IMG/VR virus record: IMGVR_UViG_3300047388_000423
Span: 161 to 64,160 of that record
Origin: a virus
Lineage: Duplodnaviria > Caudoviricetes
Length of the DNA stretch: 64,000 nucleotides
Direction: 5' to 3' (one strand)
Shown here: in pieces, positions 11,348-56,844 of the stretch
Layout: each line of letters begins with the position of its first letter
Numbering within the stretch: the stretch's first letter is position 1
Translations under genes and position numbers: made by a program
Notes under the pieces: model-generated
What the model was told of the DNA's origin: nothing
The model's database searches: none
Seen by the model: the letters and a program-made list of their open reading frames with translations, nothing else

Positions 11348-11389
11348 GAATTTAGTTCTAAGCCTGCCAAAATCACAGGAGGCTTCTCC

Positions 11390-11611: not shown

Positions 11612-11626
11612 GACGAGTTCACAGTA

Positions 11627-11827: not shown

Positions 11828-12098
11828 AAAACAACTCACGCCAATCGGCGGCGGCAAGGGCCGCATCAACATGCAGCGCGGCAAGGGCTCGACGGTGCAG
11901 CGAAATACGCCTGGTCAGCAGGAGACGCTGACCGGCGGCAATCCGCTGGCGCGGATGCTCAACCGCTATCCAGCGCAACCGCAGCCGGCCCCGAATGCGA
12001 TGGCGCCACCAACTGCGCCGGCAGCGACTGTTGGGCCGCAACCGACAGCGGCAATGCCGCCGGCGATGCCGCCGATCGGGCCGCCTGATCAGGGATGA
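11817..12098 (+). CDS. hypothetical protein
   Basis: GGAGG RBS before ATG 11817; coupled to the next gene. Confidence 0.55.
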   Translation: MVFKKQLTPIGGGKGRINMQRGKGSTVQRNTPGQQETLTGGNPLARMLNRYPAQPQPAPNAMAPPTAPAATVGPQPTAAMPPAMPPIGPPDQG

Positions 12099-12310
12099 CG
12101 GCGCGACGCAAGGAATTGATGGATTATACCCGTATCCTGCGCAATGCGGCGCCACAGGAATTTGCCAGTTTCTGCCAGGCATTCGAGCGTTACACCGATT
12201 TGATGGTTACCGACCTGGTCAATGCAACCGGGGATTTGGCGTTGGTACAGGGTCAGGCGCGGCAATGCCAAAACATCCTGGGTATCTTGGAGGAAATAAA
12301 AAATGGTTGA
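12095..12310 (+). CDS. hypothetical protein
   Basis: QGQARQ...L motif, seen in small proteins preceding podoviral scaffolds. Confidence 0.65.
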   Translation: MTARRKELMDYTRILRNAAPQEFASFCQAFERYTDLMVTDLVNATGDLALVQGQARQCQNILGILEEIKNG

Positions 12311-13388
12311 AGTTGTGGTCGATCAGAAACCGATCGAGAAGCTGCCTTACGATCCCGCGTCGATCCCCGATGCCGTCAAGCGACGCGTTGCAGCCGTAGA
12401 GGCGCTCTACAGCGCCCCGCTGGCAGAAACACCACAGCCTGCAGAGCATTCCAATGGCTCGCAACCAACGCTTCCGGTTGTCGAGTCGGCGTCGGCTCAG
12501 CTTACGCTTCCCTTAGCTGAGCCGGCCACGCAGGCGCCGGAACCACAACCGCCCCTTGCCCCTCCGGCGTCTGCGGATCATAAGCCTCCACCGCCAGACG
12601 ACGGGAATTCAGACACCTGGAAGTCGCGCTACATGGGGCTGCAGGGTCGCTTTACAACATCGCAGAAGACGATTGGCGAGTTGGAGGAGCAGGTCACGCA
12701 GATGGGCAGGGAGATGCTGCAGCTCCAGCAATGGGCTTCCCGGCAGTCGCGTCCTGCGCCGGCACCGCCATCCTATGTGACCGAAAAGGATGTTCAGGAT
12801 TACGGCACCGATCTGGTCGACTTCACCCAGCGCGCCGCGGTGCAGGCGGTGGCGCCGCATCTGCAGGCGCTGGAGCAGCAGAACGTCGAACTGCAGCGCC
12901 GATTGGCTGACGAGGCACGGGCCCGGCTCGATATGCGGGTCGAGGCGGCGGTGCCGAACTTTCGGGAGATCGATCGTGATCCACGCTGGCTTCAGTGGTT
13001 ACTTGGTATTGATCTTCTATCGGGACGTGTTAGACAGACATTGTTGAACGAAGCTATCGCGTCAGCCAACGCGCCACGTGTAATCTCGTTCTTCAACGGC
13101 TTCCGGCAAGAGGAAGCAGCTACAGGGCACAGCGAGCCAGCGCCCAGCTCCAGGACCCTCCGGGAGCCGGCGATTGATCTGGGTTCGCTTGCGGCCCCTG
13201 GCAGGGCCAGGCCGGCAACGGGCGGCGACGCTTCGATGCCCAGCGACAGACCCACTTACACTCGCGCTCAAATCGCACAGCTCTACTCTGCGCACCGCAA
13301 GGGCGCATATGTCGGGCGTGAGGCTGAATGGGCTCGGCAAGAGGCCGATATCATTGCGGCTGGTGCGGAGCGGCGCGTCCAGATGTAA
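12303..13388 (+). CDS. capsid scaffolding protein
   Basis: Pro-rich N-terminus, WKSRY..LQGRF, coiled coil, C-terminal I..A..E.R; directly upstream of MCP. Confidence 0.75.
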   Translation: MVEVVVDQKPIEKLPYDPASIPDAVKRRVAAVEALYSAPLAETPQPAEHSNGSQPTLPVVESASAQLTLPLAEPATQAPEPQPPLAPPASADHKPPPPDDGNSDTWKSRYMGLQGRFTTSQKTIGELEEQVTQMGREMLQLQQWASRQSRPAPAPPSYVTEKDVQDYGTDLVDFTQRAAVQAVAPHLQALEQQNVELQRRLADEARARLDMRVEAAVPNFREIDRDPRWLQWLLGIDLLSGRVRQTLLNEAIASANAPRVISFFNGFRQEEAATGHSEPAPSSRTLREPAIDLGSLAAPGRARPATGGDASMPSDRPTYTRAQIAQLYSAHRKGAYVGREAEWARQEADIIAAGAERRVQM

Positions 13389-13443
13389 CCCGGGGGCTGC
13401 TCGTCACTGAACGGTAGTAGCCCCTTAACCAGGGACTACTCAC

Positions 13444-14750
13444 ATGCCTATCCCCAGTGCCGGATTCCCCGGCGCAACGTCAGGCTCTGTACCCGCTCTT
13501 ACACCCGTAGGTAGTACAGGTAACCTCCTACAATCGACTGGTTTCATCCCTGAAATCTGGTGACCGCTGGCCAGATTAAATCGGTGTTGAAGCAGCTAAA
13601 TTGGTCGAGAAGTTCTATGCTTCCACAGTCTTGTCGGCCATATCAAACACCGATTACGAAGGTTTTGAGCAAGGATTTAGCCTTCGTTAAACCGGGTGAA
13701 TTGTCTGGAAACTCTGACCGCGTAATGGCGAAGACAATCAGCAGCCAAGCCGCAAATGTAAGGAAAACCCCAGGGTTGCGGAAGGTTCAACGACTAGGTG
13801 GTGAGGAAACGATACTCCGCCCACGAGCGCCCGGCTTCCCCGTAAGGGATGATGAGATAGTCTCATCTGCAGGGAAACCTGCAGGAAGATAGGGATAAAG
13901 AGCCCTATCAGCGAAGAAGTTGGAAATCCAAAATCAGGGCGATCGTGTCAAAATTCGCACGAAGCCCACCATCACCATTCGCGACTACAAGGCGGATGGT
14001 CTGCTCGGACTCGATCGACCGACCGGAGGTTCGGTTGAACTGTACATCGGCCTCGGCAAGTACTTCTCGCTGATCCTTGATGACGTGATGGAAGTCCAGT
14101 CAGATCTTAACTTGTTAAGCATGTGGTCCGACGACGCGGCCCAGCAGCTCAAGATCACGGTCGATCGCGACGTGCTTGGCGGCATTGTCGGCGCGGCAGC
14201 GGCGGCCAACAAGGGTGCGACCGCCGGGGTGATCTCCGGCAATCTCAACCTTGGCATCAAGGGTACGCCGATCACGGTGGTCGGTCGTCAGGCTACTCCG
14301 CCGGTGGCGGGGCAGATCGAGATCATCGACGTGCTGTTGCGGCTCGGCCAGTGTCTCGACGAGCAGAACATTCCGGAAGCCGGTCGCTGGGTGGTGATGT
14401 CATCCGCATGCGGTCGTCAGATCAAGCAGTCCGAGTTGAGACAGGCTTACTTATCCGGTGATCCTGTTTCGATGCTGCGTAACGGCCGGCTCGGAATGGT
14501 TGATCGTTTCACAATATACATCTCTAACTTGCTTCCGTCGGTTGCGACCGACGCGACAAACTTTGCGGCTGGTGAACAGCCGATCTTTGCTGGGCACGCC
14601 CACGGGCTTACGTTCGCGTCGCAAATTTCAAAGGTAGAAACTTTGCGTTCCGAGCTGACGTTTGGCCAAATCCTTCGTGGCCTGCAGGTCTATGGCTATC
14701 AGGTGGTGGATCCATCTGCGATAGCCCAAGCACAGGTCCTCCTGGCGTAA
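13444..14750 (+). CDS. major capsid protein (N4-gp56/P22-coat-like), spliced join(13444-13561,13593-13663,13923-14750), 338 aa
   Basis: Joined exons read ...GFIPEIW-SAKLVEKFYASTVLSAISNTDYEG-EIQNQGDRVKIR...RGLQVYG, a contiguous conserved capsid N-terminus. Confidence 0.88.
13562..13592 (+). other. 31-nt core-less mini-intron in the capsid gene
   Basis: Removal restores TGG TCA GCT AAA (W-S-A-K); follows U and ends in G; GCCAGATT pairs with exon AATCTGGT (U.G at the junction) and GCTG pairs with 3' exon CAGC. Confidence 0.7.
13664..13922 (+). ncRNA. group I self-splicing intron (IA-like, 259 nt, no ORF)
   Basis: P1 ACGAAGGT/GCCTTCGT with U.G; P10 GGATTT/AAATCC; P GAATTGTCTGGAAA, Q AATCAGCAG, R GTTCAACGACTA, S GAGATAGTC; P3 CCGGGTG/CGCCCGG; P9 CTGCAGG-GAAA-CCTGCAG; terminal G. 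Confidence 0.93.
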
Positions 14751-14755
14751 ACTTG

Positions 14756-14783
14756 GAGGGGGCTTTGGCCCCCTCTTTTGTTT
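14756..14783 (+). terminator. intrinsic terminator after MCP
   Basis: GAGGGGGC-TTTG-GCCCCCTC followed by TTTTGTTT. Confidence 0.85.
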
Positions 14784-14836
14784 GCAAGCATTATGCAAAC
14801 TTCTCGCTCTAGCCTGCTCCGCACCGGAGCGGCCAG

Positions 14837-15286
14837 ATGGCGACAAGCCCTTCCTATTACGGCAATTACAGCGACAGCGAGCTGCCGACCTTGAACACGG
14901 TGGCGGACTATATTGCCGATGCCCGGACTCAGTTGCAGGACATCGTTGGGGATAGATATCGCTACGACGACCAGTCGTTGTTGACGGCGTTGAACATTAC
15001 CCTGCTGGAAGCGCGCTGGCTGCGGGCGGACCTGTTTGTCTACAACCTCGCCACCAGGGGGCAGGTGCAGTCCTTTTCGGCTGTTGATGATACCAAGGTC
15101 GCCATCGAGGCGAGCTTTCGGCCAGCGATCCTGAACGGGGTTATCGGGCATGCCTTGAAGCGTGACCAGGAAGACGTCCAGGACGCCCGCGCTTCTTCAT
15201 ATTTGAGCATGTTCACGGCTGGATTGACCGGTCGCAGCTTGGTTGGCGTGGCCGGCGGCTCGCCGCCGTCCGGGAGACAGCAATGA
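14837..15286 (+). CDS. putative head-tail adaptor
   Basis: I..AR..LQD...RY.D..L...LN......RADLF motif; position after MCP. Confidence 0.6.
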   Translation: MATSPSYYGNYSDSELPTLNTVADYIADARTQLQDIVGDRYRYDDQSLLTALNITLLEARWLRADLFVYNLATRGQVQSFSAVDDTKVAIEASFRPAILNGVIGHALKRDQEDVQDARASSYLSMFTAGLTGRSLVGVAGGSPPSGRQQ

Positions 15287-15933
15287 GCAAAACCTCCGAT
15301 TGCGACAAGTATTGGTACAAGCTGATCAGTCGGGCTAACGTGACCCTGACCGGCGCTTCCGACGCCGAACTCAAGGTGCAGCTGTTCGACACCCTGCAGC
15401 AGTTTTTCGACGAGTCGAATAGCTGGCTCGAGACTATCAACTTCACCGTTATCCCGGACAGTCTCGACTATCCGCTGATGCCGCTGACCGGGCGGGTGCA
15501 CCGGTTGTATGGTGTTGTCGACCAGAACAACGTGCCGCAGCAGGCGGTGATGCCGGTGATCGGCACCGTGCATTTTCTTTATCCATACAGCAATCCGCAG
15601 CCGATGTGGGCGACGGTGGTCAAGAACGTCACCGATCCCTTCAGCTGCTTCCCGCCGAACATTCCGCCCTGGGTGCTGCCGGTTTACGGGCTCGGCATTC
15701 TCAGCGGCGTGCTCGGCAACATGATGCTGCAGCCGGGACAGAGCTATTCGAACCAGACGCTGGCGTCGTTTCATCTCAGCAAGTTTCGCGACGCGATCGC
15801 GCATGCGCGGGTGGCGACGATGCGCGCCAACACGGTGGGTTCGCAGAGTTGGGCGTTTCCACAACAGTTTCGCGTTGGCGGCCAGCGCGGTGGCGTCAGT
15901 ACCGCGAATGTCAATCCGATGACGTTGAGGTAA
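15283..15933 (+). CDS. putative adaptor / tail tubular protein
   Basis: Position; FF..S..W and M.QPG..YSN motifs. Confidence 0.55.
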   Translation: MSKTSDCDKYWYKLISRANVTLTGASDAELKVQLFDTLQQFFDESNSWLETINFTVIPDSLDYPLMPLTGRVHRLYGVVDQNNVPQQAVMPVIGTVHFLYPYSNPQPMWATVVKNVTDPFSCFPPNIPPWVLPVYGLGILSGVLGNMMLQPGQSYSNQTLASFHLSKFRDAIAHARVATMRANTVGSQSWAFPQQFRVGGQRGGVSTANVNPMTLR

Positions 15934-15936
15934 GCC

Positions 15937-16344
15937 ATGGATCAGTGTTGCCCCAGCGATGGCTGCGATCACAGCGTGACATCAGCGCATGTCGATCTTC
16001 GGATCGACAATAATGGCACCTGGCAAGACGCCTTCCAGTTCGGCACTCCGGACGACACCAGCTGGACCTTGACCGGCCAGGCTTTCGAACTCGACGTGCA
16101 GCGCAGCCCTTATGATCTGGTGCCACTGCTGCACATGGACAGTGCCGGTGGGCAGATCGTTATCGACGATGTGGTGCAGCGGGTGATTCACTTCAACGTC
16201 CCGCCATCGGATCTTCAGGCCAATCTCAGCCCGGGGACTTACGTATATGACCTTGTGATGGTCAATGGCTCCAATGTCCGGGTGCCGATGATGCACGGCG
16301 CGCTGATCGTAGCGCAGGGGATCACGTATCCGGCGGGGCCCTGA
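15937..16344 (+). CDS. virion Ig-like (BppU-like) protein
   Basis: LTG......R and GTYVYDLV.......M.G...V..GIT motifs. Confidence 0.6.
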
Positions 16345-16751
16345 TGCCGATCATCAACAACGATCCTGCCCTGGTAGAGACACGGCCCGTTGTGGTGGTG
16401 AACGGCCCCACTGGTGCAACCGGTGCGCCTGGCGGGCCAACCGGTCCATCGGGTCCAGCCGGTGCAGCGATAACGGGGCCGACCGGTGCAACCGGGGATC
16501 GTGGTGTTGGGCCGACCGGTGCGACCGGAGCGGGAGCGTTTACCGGGCCGACCGGGCCGAGGGGATTAACCGGCCCACCAGGGACATTAGGCGGATCGAC
16601 TACGGTATCCGGGTTGCCGGCAGCGAGCAGTGCAGGGGCGCGAAGTTTTGTCACCGACGCGACGGTCACGACGTTTAACAGCGTCGTTGCCGGCGGCGGC
16701 AGCAACAAGGTGCCGGTGTTTTCTGACGGGACCAGCTGGCGAATAGGTTGA
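16344..16751 (+). CDS. collagen-like fibre protein 1
   Basis: GPT/GAT triplets; C-terminus FVTDA...[13 protein letters not shown]. Confidence 0.8.
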
Positions 16752-16757
16752 GGGACC

Positions 16758-17228
16758 ATGTCAACGCAATCGAATATTCCCGCTCCGATCATGGCCCAGC
16801 CGGTAGTGGTAATCGGTGGTCCGACTGGTCCTGGTGGCGGACCAACGGGGCCGACAGGTCCTGCAGGGCTTGCAACGATTACGGGTGCTACGGGATCGGC
16901 AGGATCAACCGGGGTCACCGGTCCGACAGGAATGGTTGGCGCTACCGGAGCAGGTGCGTTTACCGGACCGACCGGCAAGACTGGACCGCCTGGTTCGGCG
17001 GGGGCCGCTTCGACGGTGACAGGACCAACAGGATCAACTGGAGCAACCGGTCCGGCAATCATCGGATCGACCACGGTGGCCAGTCTGCCGGCAGCCGGCA
17101 CAGCCGGTGCAGGTGCCCGAAACTTTGTCACTGATGCCAACGCGGCGACGTTCAACACGGTTGTTGCGGCCGGCGGCAGCAACAAGGTGCCGGTGTTTTC
17201 CGACGGCACCAGCTGGAGAATAGGCTGA
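16758..17228 (+). CDS. collagen-like fibre protein 2 (paralog of fibre 1)
   Basis: GPT triplets; near-identical C-terminus. Confidence 0.8.
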
Positions 17229-17229
17229 G

Positions 17230-19341
17230 ATGGTGAACGTCATACCAGCCGCCCCCGTGCAGGCGTTTCCGGTGGTGATCGCCGGAAGCACGGGTGCTGC
17301 AGGACCTACTGGTCCGGGCGGGCCGGCTGGCGGACCTACCGGGGCCACCGGAGCGACGGGAGCGGGAGCGTTCACCGGGCCGACTGGCGCAACTGGTCAG
17401 CCGGGAGCGGGCGGCACGGGGCCAACCGGGCCGACCGGATTACAGGGCGTTGGATCGACCGGACCGACGGGTGCAGGTGCGTTTACGGGTCCTACGGGTC
17501 CTACAGGTGCTGCAGGATCGGCAGGTACTCCGGGCACGCCCGGTAGTGTCGGAGCCACCGGACCAACTGGTACGCCAGGGTCAGCCGGTACACCCGGTAC
17601 TCCAGGTGGTGCCGGTGCAACCGGACCAACTGGCGCGCAGGGATCGGCGGGGATACCCGGTACTCCTGGTAGTGCTGGCGCAACCGGACCGACCGGTGCT
17701 GCAGGATCGGCCGGCGCGCCAGGCAGTGCTGGTGCAACTGGGCCGACAGGCGCGTCGGTTACTGGGCCAACGGGCCCAGCGGGTAGTGGGGGCGGCGGTG
17801 TAGCGACCGCTTGGAATCCGGCGGACCGATCTTCAACTACAGCGCTCATATTGAGCAACGGCAATCTGACTGTAACTGGAGATGGGGTCACCAATGCTTC
17901 TCATGGCATACGCGGCACCAAATCGTTGTCAGCAGGGAAGGTCTATTTTGAAATAACCGGTTCTTCTGGTGCGTTCACCTCGATGATCGGTATCGCAAGA
18001 AGCTCTGCTACACTTGGAAGTCTCTATGCCAATAGTGGAGTTGGTGCCGCTGCATTGGCTCCCAATAATGGATTTATGTATGTGAACGGAGGTGTCGGCG
18101 TTCAGGTTGAGACGACCGGTTTGCCGCTTTCAGTGCCTTACACAATATGCATAGCCGTCGATTTGACCAACTCGCTGATCTGGATGCGGGTTGTAGGGAG
18201 TGCGGTCAACGGTTGGTGGAATGGTAACGCCAGCAATAATCCGGCAACGGGTGTTGGCGGTGTGAATATATCCGCATTGTTTCCGGCCAGCGCGGCCTTT
18301 CCTGTGGTGGAGTTTAACACTTCGGCGGCGCAGGTACGGACTGCCAATTTTGGCGCAACGGCGTTTTCGCAAACAATACCTTCTGGTTTTGTTGCTTGGG
18401 ATAGTGCCGGATCTGCTAGTTCGACTGGTCCAACCGGACCGACCGGTGCTGCAGGATCGGCCGGCGCGCCAGGCAGTGCTGGTGCAACTGGGCCGACAGG
18501 ACCGATGACGGTTGGCGATGTTCGCTATGATATTGCGCAGACGCTGACGGCACCGCAAAAGGCGCAGGCCCGCGTTAATATTGCTGCGCCATTGCGGGGG
18601 CAGCTTGCAGGCTTGACGCTTTCAACAGCAGGTTCGTCGGCTACGTTTGGTGTGGCGGCAGGTGAGGCTGCTGACAGTACGGCGTCGGATTTGATGCAAC
18701 TGACAAGCGCCGTCACCAAGACTACTGCCGCGTGGGCGGTCGGTACCGGCAATGGCGCATTGGACACCGGGGCAGTTGCGGCCAGTACTTGGTACCATGT
18801 GTTCCTGATCAAGCGACCAGATACCGGGGTGGTTGATGTATGCTTTTCATTGTCTCCGGCAACTCCGACGACAGGCGCTGTTATTCCGGCGGCGTACACG
18901 CTATTCCGTCGCATTGGCTCGATGAAGACCAACAGTTCATCGCAGTGGATTGCCTTTATCCAGACGGGGGACCAATTCTTATGGTCTGCCCCTGTTGGGG
19001 ATGTAAACGCCGGTTCACCGGGCACGTCGTTGCTGAATTACGGGCTTACTGTTCCCTTCGGCATCAATGTAGTCGCCACATTCCACGGTGTTTACACCAA
19101 CACAACAGCCGCCATGCAGACAATTCTGTTCTATTCCCCGCTCACGGGTGCGCAAACTCCAGGCACACCATCGGGTAATGCTTCATTCTACAACCCGGCA
19201 GCCAATCAGTACGCAGCCGCCGATTTTCAGATATTAACCAATGCATCGACGCAAGTCTCTGTGATATGCGGCACGGCTGCCGGCAATCAGCTCTTCATTG
19301 TTACGACCGGCTGGATCGATCGGCGCGGGAGGGACGCCTGA
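17230..19341 (+). CDS. long collagen-like tail fibre with SPRY/B30.2-like and C-terminal domains
   Basis: GXY repeats; WNP.D...LSNGNLT...GKVYFE...ANFG...F...PSGF (SPRY-like); VRYD..QTLT..QK.QAR.NI; RRIGS. Confidence 0.8.
17681..18500 (+). repeat. 70-bp perfect direct repeat (17681-17750 and 18431-18500) flanking the SPRY-like domain
   Basis: CAACCGGACC...GGCCGACAGG identical at both sites, 750 bp apart (in frame). Confidence 0.9.
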
Positions 19342-40362: not shown

Positions 40363-40653
40363 TTATTTTGGCGAGTTTTCCTTGTAAAACTTGCACGAGG
40401 CCCATTCCTTCTTGACCGGCGGCCCGTGCCGGTGAGTGAAAACCAGAAACATCTTGCAGCCCTGCGATCGCACGCGGCGTTCCTCGATCAATCCCGTCTG
40501 CTTGTTGAACTTTCCTTTCCCGGCACGCCAGTATGAGCGATGCGCGCAATCGCCACACGTGGTGTCGATCGGACCAGAGCCAGCGAAGTGCGCCATACCG
40601 GGCTTGACGTCGTCGCGATCGGGGACGCCTGGCAGGCGGGTCATGATGCTCAT
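40363..40653 (-). CDS. Cys-rich hypothetical protein
   Basis: G.AHFAG.GP...TC..C...C...CK. Confidence 0.65.
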   Translation of the reverse strand: MSIMTRLPGVPDRDDVKPGMAHFAGSGPIDTTCGDCAHRSYWRAGKGKFNKQTGLIEERRVRSQGCKMFLVFTHRHGPPVKKEWASCKFYKENSPK

Positions 40654-40973
40654 GGACTTGCGTCTTTATCGAGTGCGGCATTGGCACACAACTCCACAAG
40701 CCTGAGATATTGGCAGACGGCGTCGGTAGCCTCCTCGCTGGTGGCGAAATCACCGATAATATTTTCGCCATACTCCTTGATAACCGTGGCCTTCTCTTCC
40801 GGATAATAGTCGTGGGCATAGCCCATCTTATCCTCGGTAAAAACGAGGGCGAAGTAGCGCAGTGGATCATCTGTCATATTGTCGACCTCCTCTGGCGACC
40901 AATTCTGACAAGCCATTCCCTCGTCAGGTCGCCGGCGTTGTTGACTGGCTCGCCAAATATCCAAATAGTCCAT
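40650..40973 (-). CDS. hypothetical cassette protein
   Basis: Ends in AALDKDASP. Confidence 0.55.
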   Translation of the reverse strand: MDYLDIWRASQQRRRPDEGMACQNWSPEEVDNMTDDPLRYFALVFTEDKMGYAHDYYPEEKATVIKEYGENIIGDFATSEEATDAVCQYLRLVELCANAALDKDASP

Positions 40974-40980
40974 TGGCCAA

Positions 40981-41412
40981 TCATTCCTTGATCCGCGACT
41001 TGAAGAACTCTTGCGTCTGCCGGTTGGATTCCTCCATGGGGATCATGATCACTCCAACGTTCAGATCCGGATCGGCGCCGCATAGCAGCAACAGATTACG
41101 CGACATTGGATCCATCGCGGGATGTTTGTGCGCCTGGGTTTTTTCACAAAACCGGCAAATGAAGCTGCAGACCTCCGGAATCTGCCACAACTCGCGCGAG
41201 TCCTCGTCATAGCCGCCGACGTGAATTACGATGGCGGTCGACGGCCTGATCTTCAGGGCGCGCCAGGACAGTACCGCAATCGCCAACGCCTTGCGATTGA
41301 AGTACGGCGCGTTTCCGATCGAAAACACCATCACGGTACGCGCCAGATCTTCGTCGCACTGGCCGGAGACGACGCTTTCGTGGGTACGAAATTTCAAGTC
41401 GGTCATGGTCAT
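40981..41412 (-). CDS. hypothetical protein
   Basis: GYD.D.RELWQIPEV motif. Confidence 0.6.
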   Translation of the reverse strand: MTMTDLKFRTHESVVSGQCDEDLARTVMVFSIGNAPYFNRKALAIAVLSWRALKIRPSTAIVIHVGGYDEDSRELWQIPEVCSFICRFCEKTQAHKHPAMDPMSRNLLLLCGADPDLNVGVIMIPMEESNRQTQEFFKSRIKE

Positions 41413-41521
41413 GGGTCCTTCGACAAATTAGGGCTACGTGCGCCGGCTAAAAAGGCCAGAAAAACCGCGGCGATGACGGTGCCGATAAATATTCCAAGAC
41501 CAAGCCCCAACAAGAATGTCA

Positions 41522-41743
41522 TCATTCCCTTGCGTCCTTATCGAGCGCGGCGTGGGCGACGTTATAAAGAGACGTCGAGAGAGGATTGGGCAGCATTTTG
41601 CCCGTGACGGACATAACGTACCGCAGAGCCGCCTCCAGCGCCTCAAGATCATCAAGAATGCAGATTACAGCGCGGTCGTAATCGTCACGATCTGGCTTTG
41701 ACAACTCGCGGCATCTATCTCGCATTGCTTGGGTTGATTTCAT
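41522..41743 (-). CDS. hypothetical cassette protein
   Basis: LEALEAAL...AALDKDARE. Confidence 0.6.
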   Translation of the reverse strand: MKSTQAMRDRCRELSKPDRDDYDRAVICILDDLEALEAALRYVMSVTGKMLPNPLSTSLYNVAHAALDKDARE

Positions 41744-42012
41744 TTCCCCGCATCCTTATCGAGCGCTGCGCGGGGATCAATGCCTTCGCGGATTACTTCG
41801 ATGATGTCCTCAATAGCGTCCACGGCGTATTCGCGGGCACCAGTGTACTTGAGTTCGAACTTTTGAAACGTACCGATCCAGCTTTCACAGACAGCAATGC
41901 ATCGTTCGCGCTCATTGGCTAGCGCCACCTCCAGCACCTCGATGCGGTCGGCCTGTTCCTTAAGACGGTTTTCGATTTTGAGTATCATGTCAGTCGGGAA
42001 TAGGTGGTTCAT
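41740..42012 (-). CDS. hypothetical cassette protein
   Basis: RIEVLEVAL...AALDKDAGK. Confidence 0.6.
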   Translation of the reverse strand: MNHLFPTDMILKIENRLKEQADRIEVLEVALANERERCIAVCESWIGTFQKFELKYTGAREYAVDAIEDIIEVIREGIDPRAALDKDAGK

Positions 42013-42073
42013 TTCCCCGCGTCCTTATCCAGCACGGCCCCGTCCGCGAGCGCAGGCTCCGACGGGTCTCCCT

Positions 42074-42607
42074 CTATCGACGCCTGCGCGGTGTTCGAGG
42101 GAGCCTGACAGCAGCCGCCACCTGATCTTCGTCCCCTGCGTCCTTATCGAGCGCGGCGCGGTTCAAGAACGCACGTATTTTGCTAAGCGTATCGTCTTCA
42201 GCTTCACCGAATGTCATATCTTCCGGCGTTTCCTGCATGATGCAGCATTGAGCCTGTTCTAGTATCAGCGTCGCATCCCGCAGCGCTGCCCCCAGCGCCT
42301 CGATGCGGGCATACAGGGCTATTTCCTCTTTTGTAGGAGCTTGAAGCAGCGTCTCCAATTCCTCGATGCGGGCTGCATCACGTCTGGCTATTGTCTTGAG
42401 GTTCTCTATTCCTTCGGCAAGATGCCACTTGTTGAAAGGACCGCCGTTCATTGAATGAAAATATCCTTGTGAGCCGTACAGCGAATTATTCGCTTCAGCG
42501 ACTAGTTGACGAGCTTCCTCAAGCGCTGCCTCCAGCGCCTCGATGCGGGCACGGCATTTTGCAATGTCGTGAAAGTTGCCTATACGCCATTCGTGATCTG
42601 CGCTCAT
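42074..42607 (-). CDS. hypothetical cassette protein
   Basis: RIEALEAAL-type motif x3; reads through a mutated end box. Confidence 0.55.
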   Translation of the reverse strand: MSADHEWRIGNFHDIAKCRARIEALEAALEEARQLVAEANNSLYGSQGYFHSMNGGPFNKWHLAEGIENLKTIARRDAARIEELETLLQAPTKEEIALYARIEALGAALRDATLILEQAQCCIMQETPEDMTFGEAEDDTLSKIRAFLNRAALDKDAGDEDQVAAAVRLPRTPRRRR

Positions 42608-42843
42608 TTCCCTGCGTCCTTATCGAGCGCGGCGCGGGCGTCTCGCAGCATCTTGATGGCTGCTTCGCAATAGCTGTCCCAATCGGGGGATTTTACTTCT
42701 ACCGAGAGAAATTCCAGTTCAGGGTAATACCCACGCCACAAACGAAACACCCATGAATCACGGCGTTCAATTGCTCTGATCGCCCATGCTTCACCGTTCA
42801 CGGTCAGCCAGATATGATCGTCATGTTGCCCCGATCTATTCAT
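42604..42843 (-). CDS. hypothetical cassette protein
   Basis: Starts inside the upstream box; ends AALDKDAGK. Confidence 0.55.
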   Translation of the reverse strand: MNRSGQHDDHIWLTVNGEAWAIRAIERRDSWVFRLWRGYYPELEFLSVEVKSPDWDSYCEAAIKMLRDARAALDKDAGK

Positions 42844-43111
42844 GCGTCCCTGTGTCCTTTTCAAGCGCGACGCGGACGATCCCGGCGCACGCCCTGACGG
42901 CGTCGTATACTTTTTCTTCGTGTTCACGCCGGTCCTGGTTTTTCAGCAAAATCTCCACCGCTGTTAGGGTATTTTGAGCGGATTGCAGCGCCGCCTGCAG
43001 CGCCTCAATATGATCCAGAAATTCAGCTCTGATTGAGGCGTCAATGCGCGAGAGGCTTTCCAAAGCCTCGATGCGGTTGATGAGTTCAAGAACCGAACGT
43101 TCGTCGCTCAT
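42836..43111 (-). CDS. hypothetical cassette protein
   Basis: RIEALE...VALEKDTG. Confidence 0.6.
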   Translation of the reverse strand: MSDERSVLELINRIEALESLSRIDASIRAEFLDHIEALQAALQSAQNTLTAVEILLKNQDRREHEEKVYDAVRACAGIVRVALEKDTGTHE

Positions 43112-43473
43112 TTCCCAGTGTCCTTATCGAGCGCGGCGCGGGCGATTTCTTCAATCTCGCGATAAAGATAACTTCCTTCGTCGGTCGCAATCTTCCGCAG
43201 CGCCGCCTCCAGCACCTTGACGCGAGCCTGGAGCCTGGCGTTGATTGACATTGACTGACTGAGCTGCTTGGCAATTGAAGCGTCGACCCGCGCCGTGCGT
43301 TCCAACACATCGCTGCGATCCGCCAACTGTGCCATGCGATGCAGCTCGGTCATGGCGGTGGTGTGGGCTTCGGCGGTGGGCTCGACCAGGAGGGCGATCA
43401 GCTCTGGCAGGACGTCTTCCCACGTCGTGGCGTCGGTGATGTTGAGGGTCGTCGCTTTCAGCTTCTCATTCAT
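43108..43473 (-). CDS. hypothetical cassette protein
   Basis: RVKVLEAAL...AALDKDTGK. Confidence 0.6.
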   Translation of the reverse strand: MNEKLKATTLNITDATTWEDVLPELIALLVEPTAEAHTTAMTELHRMAQLADRSDVLERTARVDASIAKQLSQSMSINARLQARVKVLEAALRKIATDEGSYLYREIEEIARAALDKDTGK

Positions 43474-51619: not shown

Positions 51620-52342
51620 ATGCTTGATTTCAATTCTCCGGTCCCGACTGTTCTCAACGATCAGCTCAACGCTGCGCTGGATGCAGCTGCGCTGATCGAG
51701 GAACGTGAGCAGCATCGGGATTATCTCGGCGCTTCTGCGATCGGTTCGGAATGTCTGCGCAAAGTGCAATTCGATTGGAAGCGCGAGAGCGTGTTCCCGG
51801 CGCGTACTCGGCGGATCTTCAACCGCGGTCACGCCTCGGAGGACAAGATCGCAGCATCGTTTGCTGCTGCCGGTTTTATAATGGAGCGAGGCACGGAGCG
51901 TTGTGGCTTCAGTGCTGTCGACGGCATGTTCCAGGGCCATTGCGATGGCATCCTGCTCGACGGTCCGCGCATTACCGGCCTGAAATACCCCTGTCTTTGG
52001 GAAAACAAATGTCTCGGAGAATCCGGCTGGAAGAAGCTCGAGAAGTACGGCCTGCACGCCGCCTATCCGGTCTATTCCGATCAGTGCCAGATCTACATGG
52101 GCTATCTCGGACTCGATGAAAACCCGGCGCTGTTCACCGCCGAGAACGCCAACAGCTGCCATCTACTGGCGCTGACGGTGGAGTTCGATGCCGTGGCGGC
52201 ACAAGCCGCCAGCGATCGTGCGGTGACGATTATTCGCGCCACGCAGGCCGAAGAGCTGCTGCCGCGCATTACCGACAAGGGGCCGGACGATTGGCGCTGC
52301 AAGATGTGTTCGCACAGCGCGTATTGCTGGAGTTTGAAATGA
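51620..52342 (+). CDS. Cas4-like PD-(D/E)XK exonuclease
   Basis: YLGAS.IG.EC.R, GH.DG, WENK, Q...Y, CKMC.....C. Confidence 0.8.
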   Translation: MLDFNSPVPTVLNDQLNAALDAAALIEEREQHRDYLGASAIGSECLRKVQFDWKRESVFPARTRRIFNRGHASEDKIAASFAAAGFIMERGTERCGFSAVDGMFQGHCDGILLDGPRITGLKYPCLWENKCLGESGWKKLEKYGLHAAYPVYSDQCQIYMGYLGLDENPALFTAENANSCHLLALTVEFDAVAAQAASDRAVTIIRATQAEELLPRITDKGPDDWRCKMCSHSAYCWSLK

Positions 52343-52443
52343 CGGAGGCTTCGAGCTTCAGAGAAGCGGCGACGGTGCCGCAAACACCGCCGCCGATACC
52401 ACCGCCGCAATCCGCGGCATTCTAGCAACGAAGGGAACTTAGC

Positions 52444-53301
52444 ATGGCTATCAAGCGAGAGGAACGAACGATCACCATCCAATTGCTCGAACAGGAAACT
52501 GTCGAGATCTTCTTTCTCGGCAAAACCTGGTTGTTCATGAATCGAATGGCGAAAAAGTCGATAGGGCAATTATTGTTGCCGCCGCTGACGCAAAACCGCG
52601 CCTCGCGTCAACAGGTATTGAAGCACGATCCACCGGCAGAATTCCGCGATTCGATCTATCGCTGCCGCAACGATAAGGCGCCGACACTGGTGCACATGCC
52701 GGAGAATGCGTTCAAGAAAGCAATGGCACAGGCAGCGCTCGGTACGCCAGGCGCGACCAAAGCGGAAATCGGTCGCCATGTGCAGGTGATTGACGAGACC
52801 GTGCACATCTACGGTACGCCATATCTCGACATGCGGATTGTGCGCCAGGCCGGCATCAACAAGACGCCAGACGTGCGAACTCGCGCGATATTCAAGGAAT
52901 GGGGTGGCAAAGTTACGGTGCAGTACACCCGTGGCATCGTCAAGGAGGCCTTTATTGCCAATTTGATGGCAAATGCCGGCAATATCACCGGGGTCGGAGA
53001 CGGCCGGACGGACAAGGGTACGTATAATTTCGGCAGCTGGGAAGTAGTTTCAAAGGACGATCCGAGATTACTCAAGCTGATGAAGGAACACGGCCGCAAG
53101 GCGCAACTGGCGGCGATGGAGCATCCGGTAGCGTCCAATGAAGATACCGAGGAACTGCTTGCCTGGTTTGAGAGCGAGCTGGTCAGGCGCGAGACCGACC
53201 GCAAGCCCGCGAAGACGAAAGCGCCGAAGCTGCCATCGCCGGAAGCGATCACGAGCGCAGCGAAACGAAATGGCAAAACAACCCCGAAAGGTGACGCATG
53301 A
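52444..53301 (+). CDS. stand-alone Cas7/RAMP-like RNA-binding protein
   Basis: N-terminal strand EIFFLG.T.L, MPENAFKKAM..AA helix, RTRAIF.EW, Gly-rich loop AG...GVGDGR..KG...FG.W.V. Confidence 0.7.
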   Translation: MAIKREERTITIQLLEQETVEIFFLGKTWLFMNRMAKKSIGQLLLPPLTQNRASRQQVLKHDPPAEFRDSIYRCRNDKAPTLVHMPENAFKKAMAQAALGTPGATKAEIGRHVQVIDETVHIYGTPYLDMRIVRQAGINKTPDVRTRAIFKEWGGKVTVQYTRGIVKEAFIANLMANAGNITGVGDGRTDKGTYNFGSWEVVSKDDPRLLKLMKEHGRKAQLAAMEHPVASNEDTEELLAWFESELVRRETDRKPAKTKAPKLPSPEAITSAAKRNGKTTPKGDA

Positions 53302-53483
53302 TCGGCGATGTGCAGTTTGACGACGAGGATTGGCTATTCGATGTTGCGCGAGATCTCGATGCAATCATCCGAAACATGCGTTTGATCGATCGCTTCGGAG
53401 GTGGTGACAAAATGAAGGAAATTACAGCATTGCTTGAACAGGCGTTGCAAGAACTGGATCCGACTTATCCGACTTGGAGGTGA
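53298..53483 (+). CDS. small hypothetical protein
   Basis: ATGA overlap with the RAMP-like gene. Confidence 0.55.
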   Translation: MIGDVQFDDEDWLFDVARDLDAIIRNMRLIDRFGGGDKMKEITALLEQALQELDPTYPTWR

Positions 53484-53486
53484 CGC

Positions 53487-54065
53487 ATGATCTCGAAAGA
53501 GAAAGCTGACTACATCACGTCGCTGGCTGACCCTAACGGCTACATTAACCCGAAACGGGTGATTGAGGCGGCGCGCGATCCAACCAGTCCGATTCACACC
53601 GACTTCGAGTGGGATGTTGATGTTGCGGCCGAGCAGCATTGGCTCGACCAGGCACGAACCCTGATCCGGTTCGTCAAACTGACAGTAGAAATCAGCCACC
53701 GCACCGTCGTCGCACCGTACTATGTGCCTGATCCGGAACGGCCGATGCATTCGAAACGCTACGTTGAGCTGACGATCGCCGGACGCGATAAGGAAATAGC
53801 GCAGCAAATTCTGCTTGCCGAGTTGGATCGCATTGCGGCGGCGATCCGGCGCGCGCAGCAGATTGCCGACGTACTCGGTCTTTCCGAACAGCTCGAGCGG
53901 TTGCTCGATGACGTAACCGAAATCAAAACGACAGCTGAGCGTCGGCGGGAAGAAAAGGACCGTAAGCGAACGGCTAAAGTTGTGCGCGGCAAGCGCAAAC
54001 CGCGTGGAGGTGGCAAACCGCGCGGAGGTGGCAAACCGCGCGGAGGTGAAAGGCCGCGGGCGTAA
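53487..54065 (+). CDS. conserved phage protein with basic KPRGGG-repeat tail (partner of the RAMP-like gene)
   Basis: G.I.P..V...ARD..SP.H..FEWD...AA...W..QAR.LIR; 18-bp x3 repeat at 53997-54050. Confidence 0.7.
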   Translation: MISKEKADYITSLADPNGYINPKRVIEAARDPTSPIHTDFEWDVDVAAEQHWLDQARTLIRFVKLTVEISHRTVVAPYYVPDPERPMHSKRYVELTIAGRDKEIAQQILLAELDRIAAAIRRAQQIADVLGLSEQLERLLDDVTEIKTTAERRREEKDRKRTAKVVRGKRKPRGGGKPRGGGKPRGGERPRA

Positions 54066-54076
54066 GAGTGTGAGTA

Positions 54077-54764
54077 GGCACGGCAAGGCAGGCACGGCGG
54101 GGCATGGCTGGGCCTGGCCTGGCGCGGCGCGGCCGGGTCGGGCGCGGTGCGACGAGGCCGGGCATGGCGAGGCAAGGCAGGCACGGCAGGACGGGGCGAG
54201 ACGCGGCAAGGCAGGGCTGGGCATGGTGCGGCTTGGCTTGGCCGGGCGAGGCACGGCAGGCGTGGTTTGGCACGGCAGGCGTGGTTTGGCACGGCAGGCG
54301 TGGTTTGGCACGGCGCGGCGCGGCGCGGTCCGGCGTGGCGAGGCGTGGTCCGGCGTGGCGAGGCACGGCAGGCGCGGCATGGCGCGGTCAGGCATGGCGC
54401 GGCATGTCAAGACTCGGCCAGGCCTGGCTTGGCTCGGCACGGCAGGCACGGCAGGCACGGCAGGCATGGCTCGGCTCGACAGGGCACGGCTCGGCGGGGT
54501 GCGGTTTGGCACGGTACGGCAGGGCAAGGCTGGGCTTGGCAAGGCAGGCAAGGCATGGCTCGGCTCGGCGGGGCACGGCTAGGCGGGGCCGGACTAGGCG
54601 AGGCGAGGCAGGCGTGGTTTGGCACGGCGAGGCTCGGCATGGCACGGTTGGGCCTGGCGGGGCTTGGCAAGGCAGGCACGGCATGGCCCGGCCAGGCTAA
54701 GGCCTGGCACGGCCAGGTCAGGCGAGACGTGGCCAGACGAGGCTAGGCACGGCAGGCGAGGCCA
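54077..54764 (+). ncRNA. GGY-NN pentamer array, putative multi-guide RNA locus
   Basis: Roughly 125 GGC/GGT (a few GAC) + NN pentamers in strict phase, divided by GGCA tetramers into 8 units of 12-17 pentamers plus short units. Confidence 0.75.
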
Positions 54765-54798
54765 AAAGGATACGAGAGGAGAGGAGGGATGCACGGCC

Positions 54799-56844
54799 AT
54801 GATCGACTTCAACAACGCGCCGCTGCAACAGGACGAATCCCAGCTTCGCCATGCTCATAGCTATGAGGTGAGCGCTGAAGATATCCGCGAGCGGCTCAAT
54901 GCGGATGTCGCCAGCTTCCTGCGGTGGCTGTATTGCGGCCGCGCCTTCATCAAGCGAAGCGAAGCGCGGATCGGTGACATCTCCGGCCAGGCCGGGACAT
55001 CATTGGCCATTGAATTATCGGGCAAAGAGGTCGGTCAATGGTTCGATCACGCTACCGAACAGGGCGGCGACCTGATTGCGCTGTACCGCGGCTACATGGG
55101 CTATGCCGGCACTACCGCCCATTTTAGGCAAAGCCTCAAGGAAATCGCCCGCGAATTCCTCCACGATCCAATCGAGCCTGATGCGCGGGTGCTGTGGCGT
55201 TCGACGCCAACGCTGTCGCCAACTGAAAAGATCCTGGCGGATAGCGTTCGGTTTGGGACTTGTCCCCGCACCGAAAACGAGGTGCTGGGACCGCCGGTTG
55301 CGACCTACAAATATCTCGACGTCGACGGCAACATCCTTACCGGCGTTACCCGTTATGAACCGAAGAGCTTTCGGCCGTGGTGTTTCAAGGTTATCGACGG
55401 CGAAAAGAAATGGGTGATTGGCTCGCCGCCGGTCCGGCCGCTGTATCACTTGCCGGAGCTGACCAATGCCAGCGAGGTTGTGCTGGTCGAGGGCGAGGGC
55501 AAGGCGGATGCGCTGGCCAGATTCAACGTGGTGACCACCACCATCATGGGCGGAGCCCATGCAGTGGACAAGACCAACTGGCTGCCGCTGGCAAAGAAGA
55601 AGATCTACATCTGGCCCGACAATGATGACGCTGGAGAAAAATTCGCGAAGGCCGCGACGGCGAAGCTGATCAACATCGGCTGCAGAATCTGGATCGTGCC
55701 GATACCTGGGGGCAAACCTCCCAAATGGGACTGCGGCAACTGCATCGGGGATGGCGAAGATCCGTTGGCGGTGCTGGCCACGGCGATCGAGCTGCTGACC
55801 GATCCCAATCAGCTGATTTTGACCGCAGGTCAATTCGTCGCCGGATTTACCTCGCCGGAATACCTGATCGACGGCATCGTGCAGCAGAGCTATCTCTACA
55901 GCCTGACCGCGCGCACCAATCACGGCAAAACCGCGGTGGCCATGTATGCCGGCAGCACGGTGGCGCGCGGGCTGGCATTTCATGGCCGCGAAACCCGACA
56001 GGGCAGTGTGTTGTTCCTGGCCGGCGAGAACTCGCAAGACATCCGGGCGCGGTTTCTGGTGCTGGCCGAGCACGACAAGTTCGATGCCGATCGGGTGCCG
56101 TTGTATTTCATCGACGGCGTCATCAACATCGCCGCCAGCCTGGCGCGAATTCGCGACGAGGCGGCCAAGATCCCAAATCTGGTGCTGGTGATCGTCGACA
56201 CCGCGGCCGCCTATTACTCCGGCCAGGACAGCAACGACAATACCCAGCAGGGAGAATTCGCTCGCTTGCTTCGCGAATTAATCAAGCTGCCGGGGCGGCC
56301 GGCGGTGATCGTCAACTGTCATCCGGTCAAGAATGCTTCGCATGACAATTTGCTGCCGCTGGGCGGCTCGGCCTTTGTCAACGAGGTCGACGGGAACCTG
56401 ACGCTGTGGTCGGAGACCGACAAGCAGACGTCGCTGCACTGGCAGGGCAAGTTTCGCGGGCCGGAGTTCGAGGCGATGGCGTTCGATCTGCGGACCGTTT
56501 CCTGCGACCGGGTCAGGGACTCCAAGGGCCGGCGGATGCCGTCCGTGGTCGCGGTTCCAATTACCGAGGACGGCGCCGAGCGCAAGGAGAAGGTCGCCGA
56601 GGAGGAGGAGAAGACCGTGCTGCGACTGATCCACGTCGACAAGCAGGCATCGTTCACCTCGATGGCAAGGGCAGCCGGGTTCGTGCTGCCGGACGGAACT
56701 CCATCCAAGGCCAAGGTGCAGCGTGTTGTCGAGAGGCTGAAGGCGGACAAGCTGGTGTTCAAACATCGAGGTTCCAAGTACCGGCTGACCAAAAAAGGCT
56801 GCCGGGAAATCAAGGTCAAATGGGACGATGACGAGGATGAGTGA
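54799..56844 (+). CDS. primase-helicase (TOPRIM + AAA_25/RepA-like)
   Basis: LVEGEGKAD, WPDNDDAG, KWD; ARTNHGKT, LAGE, IVDT; GAGGAG RBS before ATG 54799. Confidence 0.87.
   Translation: MIDFNNAPLQQDESQLRHAHSYEVSAEDIRERLNADVASFLRWLYCGRAFIKRSEARIGDISGQAGTSLAIELSGKEVGQWFDHATEQGGDLIALYRGYMGYAGTTAHFRQSLKEIAREFLHDPIEPDARVLWRSTPTLSPTEKILADSVRFGTCPRTENEVLGPPVATYKYLDVDGNILTGVTRYEPKSFRPWCFKVIDGEKKWVIGSPPVRPLYHLPELTNASEVVLVEGEGKADALARFNVVTTTIMGGAHAVDKTNWLPLAKKKIYIWPDNDDAGEKFAKAATAKLINIGCRIWIVPIPGGKPPKWDCGNCIGDGEDPLAVLATAIELLTDPNQLILTAGQFVAGFTSPEYLIDGIVQQSYLYSLTARTNHGKTAVAMYAGSTVARGLAFHGRETRQGSVLFLAGENSQDIRARFLVLAEHDKFDADRVPLYFIDGVINIAASLARIRDEAAKIPNLVLVIVDTAAAYYSGQDSNDNTQQGEFARLLRELIKLPGRPAVIVNCHPVKNASHDNLLPLGGSAFVNEVDGNLTLWSETDKQTSLHWQGKFRGPEFEAMAFDLRTVSCDRVRDSKGRRMPSVVAVPITEDGAERKEKVAEEEEKTVLRLIHVDKQASFTSMARAAGFVLPDGTPSKAKVQRVVERLKADKLVFKHRGSKYRLTKKGCREIKVKWDDDEDE

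What the first reader, a model, noticed from the sequence alone, without database searches (positions are those of the whole stretch)
52444..54764. Cas7/RAMP-like gene + partner + GGY-NN pentamer array: candidate non-CRISPR RNA-guided system
Seen: the 285-aa protein has RAMP/Cas7 hallmarks (P..AFK.AM helix; C-terminal G-rich loop AG...GVGDGR..KG..FG). It is followed by a 61-aa ORF, a 192-aa conserved protein and a 688-bp tract in which three of every five bases are nearly invariant (GGC/GGT, occasionally GAC) and two vary freely. No cas1/cas2, other Cas effector subunits or CRISPR repeats are present. Established: Cas7 RAMPs polymerise along guide RNA with a fixed nucleotide step. Inference: each protomer binds GGY and displays NN, so the NN string is a non-contiguous guide and the complex targets or silences competing phages or host genes. 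From memory this matches a recently reported viral 'VIPR'-type architecture; I could not verify that here, so novelty must be checked.
Basis: partly seen in the sequence, partly recalled or inferred. Interest (0 to 1): 0.95.

Follow-up and report, generated by a model that had tools for sequence, protein, structure and literature searches.

The report
Soil phage VIPR guide-RNA locus
A complete soil phage genome carries a lone Cas7-like protein gene, a partner gene and a 688-base array of five-letter repeats, which makes it a further example of the VIPR RNA-guided DNA-silencing systems first described in 2026; what its guides target is still unknown.

Summary
Window 54077-54764 (+) is 140 GGYNN pentamers: position 1 is G in 140/140, position 2 is G in 131/140, position 3 is C or T in 140/140, and positions 4-5 are near maximal entropy. 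It is the only such tract in the 64,160-bp phage genome.

Of 100 homologue loci, 89 carry same-strand GGYNN chains nearby and 91 carry a homologue of the 192-aa gene. The 61-aa ORF is an orphan.

This is a VIPR system, in print since April 2026 (bioRxiv 10.64898/2026.04.26.720920 and three later preprints). This scan already holds 769 such notes in at least 499 genomes.

Locally, 13 register shifts of -1 at GGCA|GGC cut the array into about eight tail-less guides of 13-18 units. That fits the paper's 'staggered arrays'. I found no target and no RNA data. It is a new member of a known kind.

The parts
52444..53301 (+). vipr: 285-aa stand-alone RAMP (Cas7/Csm3-like) protein. RRM core spans about 14-205; predicted thumb hairpin about 126-150 (R147); G-loop 179-192 (GxxxGVGDGRxxKG); C-terminal helical extension and basic tail 206-285.
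53298..53483 (+). 61-aa acidic ORF between vipr and vap. Lineage-specific orphan, not a conserved part of the system; may or may not be a real gene.
   Evidence: tblastn finds it in 0 of 100 homologue loci. Only self-match in the 5.8-billion-protein search. No Pfam, PHROG, PADLOC or NCBIfam hit.
53487..54065 (+). vap-like accessory gene, 192 aa. Small N-terminal alpha/beta domain, long helical hairpin 102-168, and a basic tail that includes an 18-nt x3 repeat at 53995-54048.
   Evidence: A homologue lies directly downstream of vipr in 91 of 100 loci. PHROG 15946, unknown function. AF2 pLDDT 89.2. No informative fold or sequence match.
54077..54764 (+). vrRNA array: 140 GGYNN units in 15 in-phase segments, separated by 13 shifts of -1 (all at GGCA|GGC) and one shift of +1.
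   Evidence: Same-strand arrays occur next to 89 of 100 homologues. The GGCA|GGC step recurs 670 times in 77 of 101 sources.
54091..54180 (+). candidate guide 1 (18 units)
   Evidence: In-phase segment between two -1 shifts.
54180..54259 (+). candidate guide 2 (16 units)
54297..54371 (+). candidate guide 3 (15 units). It is preceded by two 4-unit copies of its first three units plus the GGCA boundary unit (54259-54297).
   Evidence: TRF period 19 x 3.4 copies, 100% match.
54371..54445 (+). candidate guide 4 (15 units, two of them degenerate: GTC, GAC). It is followed by two 2-unit GGCAC-GGCA remnants (54445-54463).
   Evidence: One soil contig lacks 9 nt at 54436.
54463..54547 (+). candidate guide 5 (17 units). 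Its first seven NN units resemble units 2-8 of guide 6.
54547..54611 (+). candidate guide 6 (13 units)
54611..54675 (+). candidate guide 7 (13 units). It starts with the same three units as guide 3.
54675..54755 (+). candidate guide 8 (5 units, a +1 step, then 11 units)

Best explanation
This is a VIPR (Viral Interference Programmable Repeat) system carried as a 2.4-kb cassette in the replication module of a complete 64-kb soil phage. The cassette is vipr, an orphan ORF, a vap-like gene and the array.

Shown here:
- A RAMP-fold protein related in sequence to the solved SUSP1 Vipr.
- A conserved partner gene.
- A same-strand GGY/NN array, with the same three-part module next to most homologues.

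Inferred from the published SUSP1 work:
- The array is transcribed with the operon.
- One Vipr protomer binds each pentamer. The GGY bases are sequestered by the G-loop (D186, R188) and the thumb (R147).
- The exposed NN dinucleotides pair with double-stranded DNA, skipping every third target base. The filament then blocks transcription of a competing mobile element.

My own inference:
- The 13 steps of 4 nt at GGCA|GGC break the 5-nt register. A filament therefore cannot continue across them, and the transcript resolves into about eight tail-less guides of 13-18 units. This is the 'staggered array' layout.
- The short 2-4-unit segments are duplication remnants.

For: Sequence. The family profile matches PDB 36pp_D 'SUSP1 Vipr protein' at E 4.3e-6, ungapped over chain residues 137-186. 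This puts invariant R147, D186 and R188 on R138, D177 and R179. R138 and D177 are needed for silencing and all three contact GGY.

Array. 140 units with fixed GGY and free NN.

Module conservation. 89 of 100 homologue loci have a same-strand chain of 8 or more units within -1.5 to +4 kb. Chain counts are 327 near/+ strand, 1 near/- strand, 5 far/+ and 0 far/-. The vap-like gene is present in 91 of 100 loci.

Punctuation. GGCA|GGC steps recur in 77 of 101 sources, and the modal segment length is 10 units. The paper gives 9-16 repeats per vrRNA and describes 'staggered arrays' with 1-nt overlaps in its fig. S18 legend.

Context. No guide matches the phage itself at 80% or more, as the paper reports for its own systems. 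The record is a complete phage with direct terminal repeats and has no Cas1 or Cas2.
Against: - No RNA data exist for this locus, so neither transcription nor processing is shown.
- No natural target was found by any search, so the 1-nt-skip rule is untested for this clade.
- SUSP1 W178, which stacks on the second G, is G187 here.
- The sequence link to SUSP1 Vipr covers only 50 residues.
- There is no invariant 3' tail or pseudoknot of the kind that caps type II vrRNAs. The paper's text names hammerhead and single-vrRNA layouts, but not staggered arrays, as confirmed by sRNA-seq.
- I could not see the supplementary tables, so the VIPR type (I-VII) and the vap class (vap1-6) are unassigned.
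Confidence: 0.88

Rival explanations
1. The tract works as DNA rather than RNA. It would be a replication origin, an iteron field or a G-quadruplex-forming element serving the primase/helicase gene that starts about 35 nt downstream.
For: The tract lies directly upstream of a Toprim + AAA_25 primase/helicase. It is G-rich on one strand (75% GC). No promoter or terminator of its own is predicted.
Against: Across relatives the tract travels with vipr, not with a primase. A primase homologue is nearby in only 3 of 100 loci, against arrays in 89 of 100. Orientation relative to vipr is almost absolute: 327 to 1. Origin iterons would not need fixed GGY with free NN. The related Acidithiobacillus phage AcaML1 has the exonuclease and primase genes with only an 85-aa gene between them.
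Confidence: 0.03
2. The tract is protein-coding. Open frames of about 200 aa exist in all three + frames, and one of 405 aa on the - strand.
For: Long ORFs span it. In Mycobacterium phage Donkeykong an equivalent tract is annotated as CDS gp48.
Against: A 5-nt period with thirteen -1 shifts cannot preserve a reading frame. All frames are open only because GGYNN rarely makes stop codons. The variable positions follow the pentamer, not codons.
Confidence: 0.01
3. It is a genuine VIPR relative that works differently from SUSP1. It might use another skip rule, target RNA, silence host defence or the phage's own genes rather than rival elements, or be a decaying and inactive array.
For: No target was found under the 1-nt skip rule. 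G187 replaces the stacking tryptophan. The protein is 285 aa against 202 aa for the SUSP1 chain and has an extra C-terminal helical region. The guides have no tail. Several units are degenerate (8 GAC, 1 GTC) and there are short duplicated remnants. Other agents of this scan proposed host-defence targets for other VIPR arrays (unchecked by me).
Against: The GGY-contact residues R147, D186 and R188 are invariant across 46 homologues. NN entropy is near maximal, as expected for guides under diversifying use. The same locus occurs with identical flanks in two further soil samples. My target searches needed 8-10 consecutive perfect units, so they were insensitive.
Confidence: 0.08

Closest known systems
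VIPR type II system of Escherichia phage SUSP1 (Vipr + vap1 + vrRNAs; bioRxiv 10.64898/2026.04.26.720920 and .720927; PDB 36pp)
   Same: Phage-borne. Lone RAMP protein with G-loop GxGD.R and a thumb arginine. A downstream accessory gene. Same-strand GGY/NN pentamer RNA genes. No cas genes. No self-targeting.
   Different: The protein here is 285 aa, against a 202-aa chain. G replaces W178. The sequence match covers only about 50 residues. The array is one uninterrupted 140-unit tract, without the invariant 3' tail and pseudoknot that follows each SUSP1 vrRNA. Candidate guides are 13-18 units, against 9-16. Function here is not tested.
'Staggered vrRNA arrays' of VIPR systems (fig. S18 legend of 10.64898/2026.04.26.720920)
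   Same: [quoted passage not shown] Here every boundary is a 4-nt step, GGCA|GGC, which amounts to a 1-nt overlap of two 5-nt registers. The same step recurs in 77 of 101 related sources.
   Different: I saw the legend only, not the figure or the supplementary data, so the identity of layout is inferred. The text names the hammerhead and single-vrRNA layouts, not the staggered one, as confirmed by sRNA-seq.
Csm3/Cmr4/Cas7 backbone subunits of class 1 CRISPR effectors
   Different: No Cas7 sequence family matches (Pfam, NCBIfam, PADLOC). There is no CRISPR array, Cas1, Cas2 or other effector subunit. The step is 5 nt with 3 bases sequestered, against 6 nt with 1 flipped.
Array plus gp49 of Mycobacterium phage Donkeykong (Cheoctovirus; NC_051648.1)
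   Same: The window's array aligns at about 70% identity to a GGYNN tract with GGCA|GGC steps. gp49 is a Vipr homologue: hhalign probability 99%, E 7.8e-18 over 192 columns, G-loop GVGDWR.
   Different: There the array lies upstream of vipr and is annotated as CDS gp48. gp46 and gp47 do not match the Vipr or vap profiles. The locus sits in the immunity region of a temperate phage.

Membership tests
VIPR system | Sequence relationship to an experimentally characterised Vipr | tested here: met
   Profile of 46 homologues against PDB sequences: 36pp_D 'SUSP1 Vipr protein' at E 4.3e-6, 29.3 bits, 50 residues. The next hit is at E 0.31 and unrelated. The coverage is partial.
VIPR system | GGY-contact residues of SUSP1 Vipr (R138, D177, W178, R179) | tested here: inconclusive
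   R147, D186 and R188 align and are invariant. W178 aligns to G187; the family has G, W or Y at this position. H17, E71 and M72 could not be aligned.
VIPR system | Tandem GGY/NN (YNNGG) pentamers, at least 4 units, beside vipr on the same strand | tested here: met
   140 units starting 11 nt after the vap stop. 89 of 100 homologue loci likewise.
VIPR system | Accessory vap gene in a minimal two-gene operon | tested here: met
   A homologue of the 192-aa gene follows vipr in 91 of 100 loci. Which of vap1-6 it is cannot be told, because the supplementary data were not seen. A DNA-binding fold was not demonstrated.
VIPR system | No CRISPR array and no other cas genes | tested here: met
   Cas1 and Cas2 give 0 matches with working controls. 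No CRISPR-like repeat. The neighbouring Cas4-domain exonuclease is linked in only 2 of 100 loci.
VIPR system | vrRNAs are expressed and co-purify with Vipr | not testable with these tools
   13 runs hold the DNA, all soil or root metagenomes, and none is on record as RNA.
VIPR system | Guides match natural targets under the 1-nt skip rule (>= 80% NN) | tested here: inconclusive
   No match of 80% or more in the phage itself (best 16/22) or in the 100 homologue loci (best 17/22). Results for 0- and 2-nt skip were the same. Exact-seed scans of IMG/VR and JGI metagenomes gave 0 hits or chance-level extensions.
VIPR type II (SUSP1-like) vrRNA architecture | Each 9-16-repeat tract followed by an invariant structured 3' tail (pseudoknot) | tested here: not met
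   The tract is uninterrupted pentamers. The only punctuation is the 4-nt step. No Rfam family at E<=1 in 52000-55200.
Class 1 CRISPR-Cas Cas7 | Membership of a Cas7/Csm3/Cmr4 sequence family and association with a CRISPR array and other cas genes | tested here: not met
   0 families in Pfam, NCBIfam and PADLOC. No array, Cas1 or Cas2. Similarity is at fold level only.

The most novel reading that the evidence does not exclude
In this clade guide length would be set by register alone. A single deleted base at GGCA|GGC stops the Vipr filament, so a long primary transcript resolves into 13-18-unit RNPs. No 3' tail, ribozyme or dedicated processing nuclease would be needed. Slippage at these steps would be how guides are duplicated, lost or exchanged between phages. 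Three observations point that way: the 2-4-unit remnants, the 9-nt copy-number variant in a soil sample, and contigs with different units between shared boundaries. That would be a primitive, Cas1-free route to guide turnover.
Probability: 0.3. Interest if true: 0.5.

Novelty: new member of a known kind. Interest (0 to 1): 0.27.

Why it matters
The class is already described. It was published in April 2026, with structures, a competition study and a language-model survey following, so this locus adds an example rather than a discovery.

Its value is as material:
- It is a complete, terminally redundant soil phage with a large tail-less 'staggered' array. The paper's text does not list that layout among those confirmed by RNA sequencing.
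- Its Vipr lacks the tryptophan that stacks on the second G.
- It belongs to a very large uncultured clade: 3712 representative proteins at E<=1e-3, and 333 IMG/VR contigs.

Mapping RNA ends here would test whether a 1-nt register break is enough to delimit guides.

Tried and rejected
Target search (nothing found).
- The eight long guides were read under 0-, 1-, 2- and 3-nt skip rules against the phage itself. The best 1-nt-skip scores were 23/36, 20/32, 19/30, 19/30, 21/34, 17/26, 16/26 and 16/22. These are no better than skip 0 or 2. Skip 3 only finds the array itself.
- They were also read against the first 100 loci. The best was 17/22, and the controls were the same.
- IMG/VR exact-seed scans gave 0 hits for 10-, 10- and 9-unit seeds.
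- The two 8-unit seeds gave 32 and 15 hits. Their extensions were at most 3/6 and 6/14, which is chance.
- The JGI metagenome scans gave 0 hits, then 42 hits for a 9-unit seed. The best extension was 8/16, or 26/34 overall (76%). That is below the paper's 80% and expected about once among 42 hits.
- The 42 hits fall in unrelated ORFs. The best one, a 201-aa ORF in L155, has no PHROG.
- Decoding the guides as NNx codons in both senses gave no motif that I recognise.
- These searches need runs of perfect units, so they are insensitive. Their failure says little.

Expression. No RNA holder is listed. Only contigs could be laid.

vap function.
- The best PDB sequence match has E 0.09, a coiled coil.
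- Foldseek gave nothing at E<=1e-3.

Vipr-vap binding. Complex prediction returned 'no answer' (score 0.00). This is not evidence either way.

Other negatives.
- Rfam: no family at E<=1, so no hammerhead.
- Promoter and terminator scans were not above shuffles.
The nearest cultured phages (Acidithiobacillus AcaML1, Wolbachia WO, Pseudomonas and Ralstonia phages, at 23-42% identity) only hint at a proteobacterial host. I therefore did not spend genome-pattern searches on a guessed host.
- VIPR type and vap class could not be assigned. Tables S1-S3, data S1-S4 and the figures were not seen. I did not request supplements, as the brief says they are closed.

Papers.
- 10.64898/2026.04.26.720920: read sections 4, 10, 18, 20 and 27, plus passages with the legends of figs S16-S22.
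- .720927: abstract, outline and sections 5 and 6.
- 10.64898/2026.10.15.759431: abstract and outline only.
- 10.64898/2026.10.21.760802: passages only.
- Print searches.
Full report
WHAT IS THERE. The window is nearly all of a 64,160-bp virus record with 127-bp direct terminal repeats, rated 100% complete. It was assembled from soil. 13 soil or root metagenome runs hold part of the locus, and three hold half or more of its sampled words.

On the + strand lie four features:
- a 285-aa ORF (52444-53301);
- a 61-aa ORF (53298-53483);
- a 192-aa ORF (53487-54065);
- the pentamer tract (54077-54764), starting 11 nt after the 192-aa ORF.

A primase/helicase follows (Toprim + AAA_25). I place its start at ATG 54799.

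THE ARRAY. GGY anchors are spaced 5 nt apart 108 times, 4 nt 13 times, 10 nt 7 times, and 15 and 6 nt once each. With degenerate units filled in there are 140 units. Position 1 is G in 140/140. Position 2 is G in 131. Position 3 is C in 125 and T in 15. Positions 4 and 5 carry 1.90 and 1.98 bits, and all 16 dinucleotides are used.

Nothing like it arises by chance. There were 0 chains of 8 or more units in 50 whole-window shuffles. The longest chain in 1000 shuffles of the array's own composition was 12. No second tract exists in the genome, even at 5 units.

The long ORFs that cross the tract are artefacts of a sequence that rarely forms stop codons. A 5-nt period with thirteen -1 shifts cannot keep a reading frame.

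THE PROTEIN. No Pfam, NCBIfam or PADLOC family matches it. PHROG 4652 (unknown function) does.

It has many unnamed relatives:
- 187 at E<=1e-3 in the word-indexed search;
- 3712 / 1916 / 425 representatives at E<=1e-3 / 1e-10 / 1e-30 in the exhaustive profile search;
- 333 IMG/VR contigs.

An AlphaFold model built on 46 homologues has pLDDT 87.1. Foldseek's 42 matches at E<=1e-3 are led by type III and VII RAMP subunits.

The family profile also hits the sequence of PDB 36pp_D, deposited as 'SUSP1 Vipr protein'. E is 4.3e-6, ungapped over chain residues 137-186. In that alignment our invariant R147, D186 and R188 fall on R138, D177 and R179. The cryo-EM preprint describes these as contacting the GGY bases, and alanine substitution of R138 or D177 abolished silencing. 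W178, the stacking tryptophan, is G187 here. The family has G, W or Y at that position.

THE MODULE IN RELATIVES. I fetched 100 loci: 20 from species genomes and 80 of the 333 IMG/VR hits.
- 89 have a same-strand GGYNN chain of 8 or more units within -1.5 to +4 kb of the homologue. All 89 have one downstream, and 17 also have one upstream.
- 85 of the 100 had at least 1.5 kb of downstream flank.
- Chain counts are 327 near/+ strand, 1 near/- strand, 5 far/+ and 0 far/-.
- A homologue of the 192-aa protein follows vipr in 91 of 100 loci.
- The 61-aa ORF is found in 0, a primase homologue in 3, and the upstream exonuclease in 2.
- The 61-aa ORF matches nothing but itself among 5.8 billion proteins.

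So the conserved unit is vipr + vap-like gene + array, and it moves as a cassette. In Acidithiobacillus phage AcaML1, the nearest cultured relative of the flanking genes, the exonuclease (42% identity) and the primase (33.5%) are separated by only an 85-aa gene.

WHAT IS KNOWN. A literature search found the class at once. VIPR systems were reported in April 2026 (bioRxiv 10.64898/2026.04.26.720920).

The paper describes:
- a lone RAMP (Vipr) and usually one accessory gene (vap);
- vrRNAs of 9-16 YNNGG repeats;
- the NN dinucleotides reading double-stranded DNA with a 1-nt skip;
- transcriptional silencing of competing phages and satellites;
- seven types;
- array layouts that include 'staggered arrays with overlapping vrRNAs'.

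A companion paper gives the filament and triplex structures. Two October 2026 preprints extend the biology and recover VIPR arrays by a language model. This scan had already noted the class 769 times in at least 499 genomes.

WHAT IS PARTICULAR HERE. The array has no tails, ribozymes or Rfam matches. Its only punctuation is a 4-nt step, always GGCA|GGC, 13 times, plus one 6-nt step.

These steps delimit eight long in-phase segments of 18, 16, 15, 15, 17, 13, 13 and 5+11 units. They also delimit short segments of 2-4 units. Some of those are repeats of a boundary or of the first units of a guide.

The same step recurs 670 times in 77 of 101 sources. The commonest contexts are GGC(A/G)A-GGCA-GGC, and the modal segment length is 10 units.

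A 4-nt step is a 1-nt overlap of two 5-nt registers. That fits the fig. [quoted passage not shown] I saw only the legend. The text names the hammerhead and single-vrRNA layouts, not the staggered one, as confirmed by sRNA-seq.

My inference runs as follows. Two adjacent protomers jointly hold each GGY at a 5-nt pitch. A 4-nt step therefore ends the filament and sets the guide length.

Contigs from other soil runs carry the same flanks without differences (X2, X3). One lacks 9 nt at 54436, and several carry other pentamer units between shared stretches. This hints at array turnover. These are short metagenome contigs and may come from other phages.

WHAT I COULD NOT SHOW.
- Targets. No guide matches the phage itself or the first 100 loci at 80% or more. 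Exact-seed scans of IMG/VR and JGI metagenomes gave nothing beyond chance.
- Expression. No RNA run is listed.
- vap function. The model is confident (pLDDT 89.2), but only its helical hairpin finds matches, and these are generic.
- The VIPR type and the vap class, because the supplementary data were not seen.

VERDICT. The locus is a new member of a known kind. Its main use is as a test case for tail-less, register-punctuated guide arrays.

Noticed in passing
L190 (Mycobacterium phage Donkeykong NC_051648.1) 2490-2850 and 2839-3585: The CDS annotated as gp48 'hypothetical protein' lies over a GGYNN array with GGCA|GGC steps. gp49 is a Vipr homologue (hhalign 99%, E 7.8e-18; G-loop GVGDWR). 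27 Mycobacterium phage records match the window's array region at about 70% identity. Here the array is upstream of vipr and sits next to the repressor, Ant and excisionase genes.
   Followed up: partly
Gordonia phages ODay, Pipp, UmaThurman (hits H16-H19): tblastn with the window's Vipr finds 24-25% identical 'hypothetical proteins' in four Gordonia phage records. These are likely further unannotated Vipr genes.
   Followed up: no
window 51620-56844, compared with L191 (Acidithiobacillus phage AcaML1, 10399-13693 of its record): The VIPR cassette sits between a Cas4-domain exonuclease and the primase/helicase. In AcaML1 the homologous two genes are separated by only an 85-aa gene. This looks like insertion of a mobile cassette into a conserved replication module.
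   Followed up: partly
window 53995-54048: The basic C-terminal tail of the vap-like protein is encoded by an 18-nt repeat (3.0 copies, 97% match). Soil contigs show joints that skip 36 nt (X5) and 33 nt (X3) here, suggesting copy-number variation.
   Followed up: no
window 54436 and 54113-54700: One soil contig (X4) lacks 9 nt, one GGCAC-GGCA remnant. Other contigs join distant parts of the array or carry different pentamer units between shared stretches. This could be array variants, or related arrays of other phages in the same soils.
   Followed up: partly
window 54463-54611: Guides 5 and 6 share most of a seven-unit run of NN dinucleotides (the first seven units of guide 5 against units 2-8 of guide 6), as if they were aimed at two variants of one target.
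   Followed up: no
L155 368-970 (-), a soil metagenome contig: The best partial match to guide 5 (26 of 34 NN positions, in codon register) lies in a 201-aa ORF of no known family. It is below the 80% threshold and within chance, so it is only a weak lead.
   Followed up: partly
window 13554-13922, 40650-43473 and 6843-19341: Earlier first-reader notes on this genome, seen, describe a group I intron and a mini-intron in the capsid gene, a cassette array of small genes with a shared 30-bp end box, and collagen-like fibres with a glycosyltransferase. I examined none of them.
   Followed up: no
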